A DNA stretch of 63,148 nucleotides, counting the filler, from Collodictyon triciliatum (Eukaryota), in assembly GCA_043381765.1 (NCBI GenBank). It is 16 parts of 16 records of this genome, joined end to end, with 100 filler letters (N's around TTAATTAATTAA, not from the genome) between each part and the next. Parts side by side here need not be neighbours in the genome. Positions count along the whole stretch, not along the records: positions 7,716 to 11,467 come from JBHJMP010006928.1; 15 more parts are not named here. The stretch is one strand, 5' to 3'. Made by a program: the position numbers and the translations under genes. This document shows positions 7,805-10,882 of the stretch, in pieces; position 1 is the stretch's first letter, and each line of letters begins with the position of its first letter. A model generated the notes under the pieces. The model did no database searches, was not told the DNA's origin, and worked only from the letters and a program-made list of their open reading frames with translations.

Positions 7805-8839
7805 TTCTTGTCTGTTTCCTTTTAAAGTCACAATATAATCAACACATAGTGCTCCATCTCACTTTCTCGCATCCGCTTCGTCCCACTTGCTCTTCTACTT
7901 CCCTTCGCAACACAGGTTATGCACAGAGACACATCGTCGATCAGGACGCCAGTTGCCATCAAACTTATGAGTACAACAACCTACTATGAAGACAGAGCGA
8001 GCTCTTTGAAATGAATATAAAGAGGGATAAAAAAGACCTATCGAGCTAGAGCCACTAACTCATGGTAGCAAGATAAGTATGAATATATTTGCTCAGTATT
8101 AGTCGCTATGATTCATTCATCCGTACATTTTTTTCTTTTCTTTTTTTCTTTCCCTTCGGTCTCATTCAGCCCGTAAATGGATAAACTTCATTGCAAAGGT
8201 TGTGACGAACTTGGTTTTGCCCCTTTCAAACCACAACACTTTTTATACAACGAAAGTGTACACATACATATAGCAACTTATTGCACAGACAACCATCGAA
8301 TTAAGTCTGGGTTGACGAAATTAGGAGCTTTGATGAATCCAAGAAACAACCTGAATTATAATATAAAAGTATAATTAGCATAGAATAAGATTAAAAAATA
8401 CTTAATAATATCATTATATTCCTATAATTAGTTTCCATTTTATTTTCCATTTATGTAGTAATATCATTAAAATTAAAAAAAAATGAAAAACAAGCCCTTA
8501 AGTTGGCCCAGACAGAGCCCACCCTATAAACCTGCCACCAAACATGCATCTCAAAAAAGCATACTATCCGCACTTGCGACGGTAATCATGTTGTTTGGGG
8601 CCGATATGTTAAATTTCAGTCGCGATGGCTATACGGCTGTCCTTTCGAACTCGCCGAATCAGCTCTCGGCGTTTTGTCTCAAATCACTTTTAAAAAACGT
8701 GTGTTTGTTTGCCACAACGCGCAAATTTTGAGTCTCGGTAGATGCTTAATTTTACATAATTGATTTTGTGCAGTTTTTTTATTATCATTTTTTTAAATTG
8801 ACTGATTGACCGAAGTTTTATTAAAATTGAAGACTCGGT

Positions 8840-10760
8840 AGTTCTCTAAAGGAAAAAGTAAAACAAAGAATTTCAGGTGAAGAAAAGAAAACATCTTGAG
8901 TCTGAGAATCTAAAGTCGGGAAAACCAGACTATCGGAATGTGAAAGCATCTCTAAAGTCGATTGTAAAGAATGCGGATGACTATTTCAAAATCAACGATA
9001 CGGTTTTATTGTGTCATAATTTTGTTATCGACACTTAACTGTTTGCAAGATGTTACATATTGAAATCACAACTCCCAACAATCAATGAAATTTTTTTTTT
9101 AATGCTTTAAAGATAGTCGGAGTAGTTTCACAAGATAGACCCGCAAGATTAAATAAAAAATATCCAGATATGAGTGATGACATGATGACTTTTTATCTCA
9201 ATGATTTTCGATTCCTTTTGTCCTGAGAAGAACGCTTTCCGTTGTTAGGACTGTCTCATGTATTACCGTACTTGGCGAAGCAAATGTTAACAGCTTATCG
9301 TAATAACATCAAGGAGTATTTTTTTAAAGAGGTTACTGTGCTTTATGAATCAAACAGTTCCTAAAGACAAGAATATCACAGAAGCTGTTAAAAAGGCAGA
9401 GTCACGAAAGTTAAAAAAACCATCTTCAAGAAACTCGAAATACCGGAACAATATCAAGAATGGGCTACAACGCATTTTGCATCTTATCATTCCCAGAGGG
9501 ATTGTAAATGGTATCGAATATGATGTCAAAGTCAATCCAAGTAAGTGCATTCCATGTCTGGTTTACATGAATTGCATTTTTTAGGATATTTGACCCAAAC
9601 TGTATCAACCAATCTCTATAAGAACCAACAATATACCATGTCATATTACTCTAGATACTGCATGTTTGATAGATATTAGTATCAAGTGGAAAAACATAAT
9701 TAATGAAGAATATATCAGGATGCAAAGAGTAACTATGGGATGAGTTCTTTGAAATGAAGAAGAGGGTCTTTCATCAAATAGATTACAATTTTACATACAT
9801 GATACAAACAGACGGCTTAGCGATGTCATTATTGTTTGAAAAGAAAGGTATTTCAAATTCAAAATTCCAATATAATAAAAAAAAACTCAATATGTTTATA
9901 TATATGAACTTTCCGAAGAGCAGCTTTCTTTATTAGCGACAAAAAAAATAGTTGGAGTGGACGCAAGCAAGTTTAATTTTTTTTTGCATGGTGGATGAGG
10001 CAGGTAAGAAATTACGTTACACGGCACACCAAACAAGACATGATAGCAAATCTCCTAAAAATCACAAAATACTCTTATGCAAGAAAAAAAAGTACAATGC
10101 TTCAGGGATATGCATGGCAACATATTTACAAAGTGCTATTTCTTTTGGCCACAGGACTTTTGAGGAGAATCAGCAGTTTGAGGCATCAAGAGCATCTTTA
10201 ATCGATTTAGAGACAGGACTGAGTAAACATAATTCATGCATGGTCGATTATGAAAAATTTTTCGAAAATATTTATCTATGAAATCAAGATACCAGATAGA
10301 ATTATCCAGATTTTATGAACACGTGACTTTTCGAAAGATGAGATGGAGACAGTATGTTAATACAAAAAGAAGTGAACAGTTGTTTATGGACTGAATCGAA
10401 AAGACATTTGGCAAGGATGATGTGCTGGCGTATGGAAACTGGAGCAGAAAATCTCATATGAAACATTTTATGCCGATAATCGGATGAGGATTACGAAAAA
10501 TAGTATCCAAACATTTTGAAACAGTTAGTGTAGATGAATTTAGAACCTCCAATATGTGCTGCACCTGCGAAAAAGAACTGGAATATATGAATCCGAAAGG
10601 AAATACAAAAAAGGTGCATAAATGTCTCATATGTCAAGAATGCAATCGCTCAGAAAGCAAAAAAAGTATATTCATGACAAGGGACTTTAACAGCGCTAAA
10701 AATATACTCAAGAAAGTTCTTTTAATCCTTCAAAAAATGCATACATCTTCCTCTAAAAAA
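8840..10760 (+). pseudogene. Fanzor1 (eukaryotic TnpB-like RuvC nuclease), giant-virus-like subtype, with multiple stops and frameshifts
   Basis: Joined frames: YRNVKASLKSIV..LPYLAKQMLTAYRNNIKE..YDVKVNP..IPCHITLDTACLID..MIQTDG..IVGVD (RuvC-I D at 9960)..FRKMRWRQYVNTKRSE..AYGNWS..VDEFRTSNMCCTC (RuvC-II E at 10536, Zn finger)..CQEC..TRDFNSAKNIL (RuvC-III D at 10683). Confidence 0.92.
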
Positions 10761-10882
10761 TCAGACTGTTGGGTCTTTCCTGCAGCCTTCACCACTGTAC
10801 AACCTTTGTGAAAAAAGTGGTGAGACCTTGGATACTATTGGACCAAGTTTACCAAACGAAAGATTGGTTTTACTCCTTCTAA
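10760..10882 (+). ncRNA. Putative Fanzor omegaRNA scaffold (copy 1)
   Basis: Region conserved between copies just downstream of RuvC-III, with nested stems GGTC(T)/(A)GACC, TCACCACT/AGTGGTGA, TACAA/TTGTG and terminal hairpin ACCAAAC-GAAA-GATTGGT; this is where Fanzor/TnpB omegaRNAs lie. Confidence 0.6.

What the first reader, a model, noticed from the sequence alone, without database searches (positions are those of the whole stretch)
8017..10882. Fanzor1 RNA-guided nuclease carried by an apparently non-autonomous Helitron-like element, in two independent copies
Seen: 8017-10882 (+) and 37859-41007 (-) are colinear homologues (roughly 80-90% identical by eye) with unrelated 3' flanks. Each carries a decayed RuvC nuclease with the KxSLKSI / NNIKE / TDG / GVD / DEFRTS-CxxC / RDxN motifs. 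Homology stops at CTAA|T and CTAG|T, about 10 nt after a hairpin, and no transposase or TIR is visible. Known: this motif set characterises Fanzor1 proteins of the giant-virus (Klosneuvirus/Mimiviridae-like) type; Helitrons end in hairpin + CTRR and insert before T; Fanzor-Helitron associations have been reported. Inference: a rolling-circle-mobilised, Fanzor-only family spread in this protist, and intact copies elsewhere could provide a new programmable nuclease.
Basis: partly seen in the sequence, partly recalled or inferred. Interest (0 to 1): 0.85.

Follow-up and report, generated by a model that had tools for sequence, protein, structure and literature searches.

The report
Two dead Fanzor1 nuclease gene copies
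Two broken copies of a mobile element that once encoded a Fanzor1 RNA-guided nuclease sit on two small unplaced contigs of a protist-like assembly; the gene identification holds, but nothing tested supports carriage by a Helitron, and such transposase-less Fanzor elements are already known.

Summary
The repeat is real. 8017-10889 (+) and 41007-37852 (-) are colinear and 82.8% identical, with unrelated 3' flanks. The window is a chain of about 3.75-kb contigs joined by N44-TTAATTAATTAA-N44 linkers. The two copies therefore lie on separate contigs, and their spacing and orientation mean nothing.

Each copy is a pseudogene of a Fanzor1 nuclease: 17 lesions in A and 21 in B. An intact 648-aa metagenomic homologue, P0002, covers both end to end. 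P0002 and its family profile match solved Fanzor1 structures. The lineage nests among Fanzor1 genes of giant-virus contigs, so the "giant-virus type" label holds.

The Helitron reading is not supported:
- The subterminal "hairpin" folds no better than shuffled sequence.
- No 5' TC end or 5' hairpin is seen, and the 5' end is undefined because copy B runs into a microsatellite at its contig end.
- The CTRR match rests on two old copies.
- No RepHel gene was seen.
- Relatives with definable ends carry 31-33-nt inverted repeats, not Helitron ends.

The vehicle is unresolved. Fanzor1-only elements, including Helitron-borne and repeat-less ones, are in print. This is a new member of a known kind, of modest interest.

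The parts
8017..10885 (+). Copy A of the repeat, about 2.87 kb. The 3' end is sharp to within about 3 nt. The 5' end is only the limit of homology with copy B.
   Evidence: blastn and alignments
8017..8876 (+). 5' non-coding part of copy A. It holds a short T/C-rich tract where copy B has an expanded microsatellite. Small ORFs here show no sign of selection and have no homologues.
   Evidence: dN/dS 0.6-1.1 in all three frames, 0.81-0.88 for the two small ORFs. No Pfam hit. No homologues. No similarity to the viral loci.
8877..10811 (+). Fanzor1 pseudogene, copy A. 380 of 624 aligned codons are identical to P0002. It has 8 in-frame stops and 9 frameshifts.
   Evidence: Frameshift-aware alignment; tblastn E 1e-111
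9960..10685 (+). RuvC catalytic codons of copy A: D at 9960-9962, E at 10536-10538, D at 10683-10685. The four zinc-ribbon Cys codons lie at 10557-10643. All are retained.
   Evidence: Mapped onto P0002 D364, E555 and D604, which are invariant in the 30-member family alignment.
10789..10885 (+). 3' tail of copy A: the last codons, the stop (10809-10811) and 74 nt. It is predicted to form three small hairpins. This is the inferred place of the guide-RNA (omega RNA) scaffold, ending where homology ends.
   Evidence: Fold z -2.13 in A but +0.06 in B. One compensatory pair between A and B. nhmmer hints at E 10 (A) and 1.2 (B). No covariance-model hit.
37856..41007 (-). Copy B of the repeat. It is colinear with A and holds an extra (CCTTTT)n-type microsatellite of about 230 nt near 40690-40925.
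37941..39910 (-). Fanzor1 pseudogene, copy B. 363 of 628 aligned codons are identical to P0002. It has 11 in-frame stops and 10 frameshifts. The catalytic E is lost to a frameshift at 38202 and one zinc-ribbon Cys is now Ser.
7616..7715 (.). Assembly linker (N44-TTAATTAATTAA-N44) at the left edge of the contig holding copy A. Its partners are at 11468-11567, 37321-37420 and 41166-41265.
7732..7804 (-). tRNA-Asn(GTT) gene in the 5' flank of copy A. It is context, not part of the repeat.
   Evidence: ARAGORN; Rfam tRNA 67.3 bits

Best explanation
These are two old, independently decayed copies of one transposase-less, single-gene Fanzor1 element of about 2.9 kb. They sit at two unrelated places, on two separate contigs. 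The gene belongs to a Fanzor1 clade that is abundant in giant-virus genomes.

When intact (inferred from the family), the element encoded a nuclease of about 640 aa. That protein has a split RuvC site (D-E-D) and a CxxC...CxxC zinc ribbon. It would be loaded with a guide RNA transcribed from the element's last 100 nt or so, and the guide portion would be read from the DNA just beyond the sharp 3' boundary.

The element cannot move itself and must have been copied by an enzyme supplied in trans. Which enzyme is unresolved. The ends show no demonstrable inverted repeat, hairpin or target duplication, much like the repeat-less Fanzor1 loci reported for Guillardia theta.

Shown: the repeat, the gene identity, the decay, the clade, the sharp 3' end. 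Inferred: the guide RNA, its position, and mobilisation in trans.
For: - Repeat: 82.8% identity over 2845 columns, with an abrupt loss of identity at the 3' end.
- Gene identity: P0002 covers both copies. P0002 matches solved Fanzor1 chains at 2e-28 to 4e-23. The family profile matches SpuFz1 at 1e-97, PpFz1 at 1e-96 and GtFz1 at 7e-69. 20 of 30 family members hit Pfam PF07282. D364, E555 and D604 are invariant in the family and all three are kept in copy A.
- Decay: 17 lesions in A and 21 in B. All stops lie at different places in the two copies. dN/dS between the copies is 0.80, against 0.6-1.1 in non-coding control frames. Identity is uniform across coding and non-coding parts.
- Clade: 3147 clusters at E<=1e-3 and 309 viral loci. 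In the tree, winA+winB (99) join P0002 (100) inside a 100-supported clade of 20 rows that includes viral loci.
[quoted passage not shown] It is 93.5% paired, 15 of 17 pairs show compensatory changes, and 0 of 500 shuffles do as well. Published Spu-1 places the omega RNA in the 80 nt after the stop codon. Here 74 nt follow the stop codon.
- Repeat-less Fanzor1 loci without a transposase are reported for GtFz1 (passages).
Against: - The covariance model built from the viral scaffolds finds nothing at the 3' ends of either copy. All 22 hits, at E 0.11-9.9, lie elsewhere.
- nhmmer gives only E 10 (A) and 1.2 (B) at the matching spot.
- The 3' tail folds better than shuffles in A (z -2.13) but not in B (z 0.06).
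- Only two copies are visible, so copy number, the 5' end, target duplications and empty sites are all unknown.
- Two -1 frameshifts appear shared by A and B. The source copy may therefore already have been broken. Both lie in A-runs, where parallel slippage or assembly error is also possible.
- The window copies themselves reach only weak direct profile hits: PF07282 at E 0.0014, below Pfam's cut-off, and PpFz1 at E 0.047. Their assignment runs through P0002.
Confidence: 0.75

Rival explanations
1. One reading: a non-autonomous Helitron or Helitron2-type rolling-circle element whose only cargo is Fanzor1. It would end in CTRR and be inserted before T.
For: - Both copies end ...CTAA|T and ...CTAG|T.
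- No inverted repeat is detected.
- The pattern of a precise shared 3' end with an uncertain 5' end resembles the 3'-anchored, often 5'-truncated Fanzor1 Helitron2 elements CRe-1, 2 and 3 of Chlamydomonas (Bao & Jurka 2013, passages).
- Non-autonomous Helitron ends around Fanzors are also reported by Jiang et al. 2023 (passages).
Against: - There is no subterminal hairpin: z -0.05 and +1.32, and no perfect stem of 6 bp or more within 60 nt of the end in either copy.
- There is no 5' TC at the homology limit, and no 5' hairpin (z -0.34 and -0.72).
- No RepHel was found on the 20 of 43 long ORFs scanned. No other element in the window shares the termini.
- CTRR is a four-base match at a boundary known only to within about 3 nt.
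- The same ...CTAA|TA in copy A fits a TA duplication equally well.
- All relatives with definable ends are inverted-repeat elements.
Confidence: 0.13
2. A Tc1/mariner-type, TA-flanked inverted-repeat element like its giant-virus relatives and Spu-1, whose terminal repeats were already degenerate in the source copy.
For: - 37 of the 55 viral loci with both flanks available have TTACACC upstream and its complement downstream.
- 11 of 13 loci inspected show 31-33 identical or nearly identical terminal bases. These include the closest relatives L002, L004 and L006 and the most distant one, L001.
- The tree places the window lineage between such loci.
- In copy A the best terminal register gives 16 of 26 matches, with TA on both sides (empirical P 0.025).
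- Fanzor1-only elements with mariner ends are in print: PUl-4 and SPu-1 (passages).
Against: - Copy B gives only 13 of 26 (P 0.39) and has no flanking TA.
- Gapped local alignment of the ends is at chance level.
- Neither TTACACC nor GGTGTAA occurs anywhere in either contig.
- At about 9% decay per copy, a 31-nt repeat present in the common ancestor should still be obvious.
- 18 of the 55 viral loci lack the motif pair.
Confidence: 0.22
3. Not a discrete transposon. The two copies would be the 3' parts of a longer unit whose 5' side is hidden by the contig ends. Candidates are a chimeric transposase-plus-Fanzor element, an integrated giant-virus fragment, or a small segmental duplication.
For: - The 5' flank of copy B is only microsatellite up to the contig end, so the 5' limit is untested.
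- Both copies lie on about 3.75-kb unplaced contigs.
- Another contig of the same chain carries virus-like genes.
- Chimeric elements with the transposase at the 5' end and Fanzor1 at the 3' end are described (passages).
- Two frameshifts may be shared.
Against: - In copy A, the 212 nt between 8017 and a tRNA gene show no similarity to anything in copy B's contig.
- The 3' boundary is identical in both copies, with unrelated flanks.
- No viral or transposase ORF lies on either contig.
Confidence: 0.15

Closest known systems
Spu-1 / SpuFz1 of Spizellomyces punctatus and the Fanzor1-only mariner-type elements such as PUl-4 (Bao & Jurka 2013, PMC3627910; Saito et al. 2023, PMC10432273; passages read)
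   Same: - A single intron-less Fanzor1 ORF of about 630-650 aa in a 2-3 kb unit with no transposase.
- The family profile matches SpuFz1 at 1e-97 over its full length.
- The stop codon is followed by a tail of about 75-80 nt, where Spu-1 encodes its omega RNA.
   Different: Spu-1 has 30-33-nt inverted repeats and a TA duplication. The window copies show none that pass a test. Both window copies are dead.
Giant-virus Fanzor1 inverted-repeat elements, here L002-L080 from IMG/VR contigs (related in print: PGv-1 and other viral Fanzor1 elements, Bao & Jurka 2013)
   Same: The same Fanzor1 clade: 36-47% identity to P0002 and nested in the tree. The layout is also the same: a 5' non-coding part of 0.45-1.4 kb, then the ORF, then a 3' tail.
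   Different: The viral elements are intact. They are bounded by 31-33-nt repeats starting TTACACC, and they carry a covarying RNA scaffold. The window copies lack the repeats, do not match the scaffold model, and share no non-coding sequence with them.
GtFz1 loci of Guillardia theta (Saito et al. 2023, discussion passage)
   Same: Fanzor1 loci in a protist that 'seem to lack IRs', with no transposase association. P0002's best single-sequence structure hit is GtFz1 (2e-28).
   Different: GtFz1 is active and has been solved. The family profile is closer to SpuFz1 and PpFz1 than to GtFz1 (1e-97 and 1e-96 against 7e-69). I did not see GtFz1 locus sequences.
CRe-1, 2, 3: non-autonomous Helitron2 elements of Chlamydomonas reinhardtii that carry only Fanzor1 (Bao & Jurka 2013; Jiang et al. 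2023, PMC10530073)
   Same: Fanzor1 is the only gene, there is no transposase, and the 3' end is conserved while the 5' end may be variable.
   Different: The CRe elements have 5' and 3' hairpins, asymmetric terminal repeats, termini shared with verified RepHel Helitrons, and multi-exon genes. None of these is seen here.

Membership tests
Fanzor1 (eukaryotic/viral TnpB-like RNA-guided nuclease) | Full-length sequence homology to experimentally solved Fanzor1 proteins | tested here: met
   P0002, which is 61% and 58% identical to the read-through copies, matches GtFz1, PpFz1 and SpuFz1 at 2e-28 to 4e-23. The family profile matches at 1e-97, 1e-96 and 7e-69. A window piece alone reaches only E 0.047.
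Fanzor1 (eukaryotic/viral TnpB-like RNA-guided nuclease) | Split RuvC triad D...E...D with the RD motif, plus a C4 zinc ribbon | tested here: met
   D364, E555 and D604 are invariant in 30 family members. Copy A keeps all three and all four Cys. Copy B has lost E to a frameshift and one Cys to Ser. PF07282 hits at E 0.0014 on the copy A piece, below Pfam's cut-off, and hits 20 of 30 relatives.
Fanzor1 (eukaryotic/viral TnpB-like RNA-guided nuclease) | An associated omega/guide RNA at the 3' end of the locus | tested here: inconclusive
   Relatives have a covarying scaffold. The model built from it does not hit the window copies. nhmmer gives only hints, E 10 and 1.2. Folding is better than shuffles in A only. 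No RNA run is listed.
Fanzor1 (eukaryotic/viral TnpB-like RNA-guided nuclease) | An intact, expressible gene | tested here: not met
   8 stops and 9 frameshifts in A; 11 stops and 10 frameshifts in B. Both are pseudogenes of the family.
Helitron (canonical Helitron1) | 3' terminus CTRR, inserted before T | tested here: inconclusive
   CTAA|T and CTAG|T lie at the homology limit. That limit comes from two copies that differ by 17% and is known only to within about 3 nt. In A it is equally readable as element end plus TA.
Helitron (canonical Helitron1) | A G+C-rich subterminal hairpin about 10-12 nt before the 3' end | tested here: not met
   z -0.05 and +1.32 for the last 66 nt. The only perfect stem of 6 bp or more is 66 nt from the end, and only in A.
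Helitron (canonical Helitron1) | 5' terminus TC after A, with no target duplication | tested here: inconclusive
   Homology starts at ATAAAGAGG, with no TC there. The true 5' end is unknown because copy B's flank is a microsatellite at its contig end.
Helitron (canonical Helitron1) | An autonomous RepHel partner that shares the termini | not testable with these tools
   No genome is held. None was seen on the 20 of 43 long ORFs scanned. No other sequence in the window shares the ends.
Helitron2 | A 5'-terminal hairpin and asymmetric terminal inverted repeats | tested here: not met
   The 5' 80 nt fold at z -0.34 (A) and -0.72 (B). Alignment of one end against the other is at chance level.
Tc1/mariner-type Fanzor1 element | Terminal inverted repeats | tested here: inconclusive
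   A gives 16 of 26 (P 0.025) and B 13 of 26 (P 0.39). The gapped test is at chance. The relatives' TTACACC motif is absent.
Tc1/mariner-type Fanzor1 element | TA target-site duplication | tested here: inconclusive
   In the best register, TA flanks both ends of copy A. Copy B has GA and TT.

The most novel reading that the evidence does not exclude
A vehicle switch within one Fanzor1 subclade. A nuclease gene that rides TA-flanked inverted-repeat elements in giant viruses would have entered a protist genome. There it would have been propagated as a repeat-less unit anchored at its 3' end, with that end falling exactly at the junction between guide-RNA scaffold and guide. That geometry is the one used by IS200/IS605-type and Helitron-like single-strand transposons, and it would let the nuclease home on the element's own empty sites.
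Probability: 0.15. Interest if true: 0.45.

Novelty: new member of a known kind. Interest (0 to 1): 0.25.

Why it matters
If the copies are what they appear to be, they add one more case of a giant-virus-type Fanzor1 element fossilised in a protist-like genome. That fits the published idea that viruses spread these nucleases (Bao & Jurka 2013).

Practical value is low:
- Both copies are dead.
- Intact relatives are already plentiful in public data. P0002 is one, and there are 3147 clusters.
- Fanzor1-only elements are described, including Helitron-borne and repeat-less ones.

The useful correction is twofold. The window is a chain of unrelated small contigs. The 'Helitron terminus' is more simply read as the end of the element's 3' tail, the place where related elements encode their guide RNA.

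Tried and rejected
- Own genome: none is held. Copy number, empty sites and partner elements could not be examined.
- Sequencing runs: five freshwater or aquatic metagenome runs hold only 5-8% of the sampled words, and no RNA holder is listed.
- Metagenome contig scan with P0002: one distant locus, L001, at 21% identity. Viral scan with P0002 alone: nothing.
- Pfam on window pieces: only a sub-threshold PF07282 hit.
- The 5' small ORFs (8477-8731 and 40068-40370): no Pfam hit, no homologues, and dN/dS 0.81-0.88. Rejected as coding.
- Shared lesions as proof that a dead copy was propagated: two shared -1 frameshifts, but both lie in A7-A9 runs. Left open.
- Covariance model of the viral guide-RNA scaffold against the window: no hit at the copies.
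- blastn and tblastx of the copies' non-coding ends against 80 related loci: nothing.
- Rfam across the window: only three tRNAs.
- Earlier notes of this scan, by place and by sequence: nothing.
- Supplementary files of Bao & Jurka 2013 hold element sequences and terminal alignments. They were not opened, so a match of these ends to a catalogued Fanzor element cannot be excluded.
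Full report
**What the window is.** Runs of N come in pairs of 44 around the 12-mer TTAATTAATTAA, a six-frame stop linker. They occur at 15 places and cut the window into 16 pieces. Eleven of the fourteen whole pieces are 3740-3762 nt long and fall slowly in length. The exceptions are 3779, 4685 and 5544 nt. This is a chain of small unplaced contigs, roughly sorted by size. 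Adjacency and orientation across a linker carry no information. Copy A lies in piece 7716-11467 and copy B in piece 37421-41165. Many pieces end in microsatellites, where the assembly evidently broke. Other pieces encode kinases, COR and LRR domains, and Myb and PAH domains. There are three tRNA genes. The DNA therefore looks eukaryotic and protist-like.

**The repeat.** blastn aligns 8129-10889 (+) with 40662-37852 (-) at 82.8% over 2845 columns, and 8017-8156 with 41007-40871 at 75.9%. Copy B has an extra microsatellite of about 230 nt where A has a short T/C-rich tract. Identity is even along the unit, 75-91% per 150 nt. It drops to about 35% after 10877. The 3' limit is ...CTTCTAA|TAC in A and ...CTTCTAG|TTT in B. 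The 5' limit, near ATAAAGAGG at 8017-8025, is not a demonstrated end. Upstream of it, copy B has only (ATAATAATG)n up to the end of its contig. No third copy or fragment, and nothing else sharing the termini, is in the window.

**The gene.**
On their own they reach only a sub-threshold hit to the Cas12f1-like TNB domain (E 0.0014).
- A word-indexed search with the C-terminal piece found P0002, an intact 648-aa protein from a 2.6-kb metagenome contig. tblastn with P0002 covers both copies from residue 1 to about 640.
- A frameshift-aware alignment gives, for A, 380 of 624 codons identical with 8 in-frame stops and 9 frameshifts. For B it gives 363 of 628 identical, with 11 stops and 10 frameshifts.
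- P0002 matches the solved Fanzor1 proteins of Guillardia theta (2e-28), Parasitella parasitica (3e-24) and Spizellomyces punctatus (4e-23).
- A profile of 30 family members matches SpuFz1 at 1e-97 over positions 3-606 of 616. 20 of those 30 members hit PF07282.
- The RuvC residues D364, E555 and D604 are invariant in that alignment.
- Copy A keeps all three RuvC residues and the four zinc-ribbon cysteines. Copy B has lost the E to a frameshift and one Cys to Ser.

The gene is Fanzor1, and both copies are pseudogenes.

**How the copies decayed.**
- No stop codon is shared between A and B.
- All but two frameshifts coincide with an indel between A and B, so they arose after the copies separated.
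- Two -1 frameshifts have no such indel and look shared. Both lie in A7-A9 runs, so parallel slippage or assembly error is as likely as a broken source copy.
- dN/dS between A and B in the Fanzor frame is 0.80 (dS 0.20, dN 0.16). Arbitrary frames of the 5' non-coding part give 0.6-1.1.
- The divergence is therefore essentially neutral. These are two old insertions or duplicates of one source sequence.
- Small ORFs open in both copies in the 5' part show no selection (0.81-0.88) and have no homologues.

**The clade.**
- An exhaustive HMMER search with P0002 finds 3147 representative clusters at E<=1e-3 and 537 at <=1e-30.
- Ten top clusters are all unnamed metagenome proteins.
- A scan of the viral collection with the family alignment gave 350 candidate stretches, of which 309 encode relatives. 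The best 80 were kept (79 distinct loci), many on giant-virus MAG contigs, at 35-47% identity to P0002.
- A quick maximum-likelihood tree was built from 90 rows: the two read-through copies, 20 metagenome proteins and 68 non-identical locus ORFs of at least 520 aa (67 from viral contigs, plus the metagenome contigs locus L001). It used LG+G4 with SH-aLRT support only, and was rooted on the distant L001.
- That tree joins winA with winB (99), then P0002 (100), then P0013 (95). All sit inside a 100-supported clade of 20 rows that also holds viral loci L008/L009 and L002-L006.
- The tool warned of long branches, including P0013.

**What carries the relatives.**
- Among the 80 loci, copies from different contigs share a unit with sharp ends about 2.0-2.4 kb long.
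- Of the 55 loci with 1.4 kb upstream and 0.6 kb downstream available, 37 have TTACACC upstream and its complement downstream. Taking any flank length, the count is 41 of 80.
- In 11 of 13 loci inspected, the first 31-33 bases at the two ends are identical or nearly so. L009 and L031 were not.
- The 11 include the closest viral relatives L002, L004 and L006 and the outgroup L001.
- These are inverted-repeat elements, 2.2-3.3 kb long, with one ORF and no transposase. They have the kind of architecture described for Spu-1 and for mariner-type Fanzor1 elements (Bao & Jurka 2013, passages).
- Notes from earlier runs of this scan describe similar giant-virus elements as mariner-type with a TA duplication. 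I treated those notes as leads only.

**Testing the Helitron reading on the window copies.**
1. Hairpin. The last 66 nt fold no better than shuffles (z -0.05 in A, +1.32 in B). The only perfect stem of 6 bp or more in the last 150 nt is 66 nt from the end of A. B has none.
2. 5' end. There is no TC at the homology limit. The first 80 nt have no significant hairpin (z -0.34 and -0.72).
3. CTRR|T is present. It is four bases at a limit defined by two diverged copies.
4. No RepHel or any transposase was found on 20 of the 43 ORFs of at least 150 aa. The other 23 were not scanned.
5. Fanzor1-only, non-autonomous Helitron2 elements are already published (CRe-1, 2, 3). They have hairpins, asymmetric repeats and termini shared with verified Helitrons, none of which is seen here.

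The Helitron assignment is therefore unsupported, though not excluded.

**Testing the inverted-repeat reading.**
- Gapped local alignment of the two ends is at chance level: 147 of 300, 142 of 300 and 172 of 300 shuffles score as high.
- The relatives' terminal heptamer is absent from both contigs.
- An ungapped test anchored on the termini gives 16 of 26 in A, with TA on both sides (empirical P 0.025). In B it gives 13 of 26 (P 0.39).
- At about 9% decay per copy, a 31-nt repeat in the common ancestor should still be plain. The source of A and B therefore did not have good terminal repeats at these limits.
- Saito et al. 2023 note that GtFz1 loci 'seem to lack IRs' and show no transposase association. 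Repeat-less Fanzor1 loci in a protist have precedent.

**The 3' tail and the guide RNA.**
- On my structure, 93.5% of cells pair and 15 of 17 pairs show compensatory changes. 0 of 500 shuffles reach these values, and slid controls pair at 32-51%.
- This is where Spu-1 encodes its omega RNA.
- In the window the stop codon (10809-10811) is followed by 74 nt before homology ends.
- That tail is predicted to form three small hairpins, with one compensatory pair between A and B. It folds better than shuffles in A (z -2.13) but not in B (z 0.06).
- The covariance model built from the viral scaffolds does not find either copy. Its 22 hits, at E 0.11-9.9, are all elsewhere.
- A sequence profile gives only hints at the matching spot in both copies: E 1.2 at rank 2 for B, and E 10 at rank 5 for A. 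The two copies are not independent of each other.

The guide-RNA role of the tail is thus an inference from position and family, not a result. The sharp 3' boundary is more simply read as the end of the element's 3' tail, where relatives encode a guide-RNA scaffold, than as a Helitron terminus.

**Verdict.** The Fanzor1 and giant-virus-clade parts of the interpretation hold. The Helitron part does not pass its own defining features. The vehicle cannot be settled from two 83%-identical copies on 3.75-kb contigs. Everything established here belongs to kinds already in print.

Noticed in passing
window 3759-3858, 7616-7715, 11468-11567 and 12 further sites: The window is a pseudomolecule: 16 pieces joined by N44-TTAATTAATTAA-N44 linkers. 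Most pieces are 3740-3779 nt and roughly length-sorted. Any finding that relies on gene order or distance across a linker in this record is unsafe.
   Followed up: yes
window 56655-60395 (ORFs 57392-58129 + and 58556-60337 +): One contig carries a Pox_A32-type packaging ATPase (Pfam E 7.6e-14; PHROG terminase 5e-8). Next to it is a 594-aa ORF with no Pfam or PDB sequence hit. The ORF's language-model features resemble capsid proteins of virophage-, polinton- and giant-virus-like viruses (score 0.97, a lead only). This looks like a fragment of a virophage- or polinton-like virus, or an integrated one.
   Followed up: partly
L002-L080 (IMG/VR loci), e.g. L071:5527-7933, L002:4638-7951, L006:5156-7898: A large family of transposase-less, single-ORF Fanzor1 elements (2.2-3.3 kb) in giant-virus contigs, with 31-33-nt terminal inverted repeats starting TTACACC. 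[quoted passage not shown] Elements of this kind are in print and were noted earlier in this scan.
   Followed up: partly
window 15834-16075 / 30072-30313 / 49375-49452: Another dispersed repeat, 242 nt at 86% in inverted orientation, with a third partial copy at 81%. It is shared by three different contigs. Not examined.
   Followed up: no
window 45128-48872: One contig is far more G+C-rich (0.61 at 46001-48000) than the rest (0.31-0.47). It has overlapping long ORFs on both strands and only a sub-threshold P450 hit. It may come from a different organism or compartment.
   Followed up: no
window 16990-18123 (-), 34242-35969 (-), 36010-37320 (-), 18494-18982 (-), 33424-33987 (-): Several contigs encode kinase, COR-A and LRR domains. 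A 69-nt tandem repeat is shared between 18471-18775 and 33473-33984. This points to a multi-copy ROCO/LRR-kinase gene family collapsed into small contigs.
   Followed up: no
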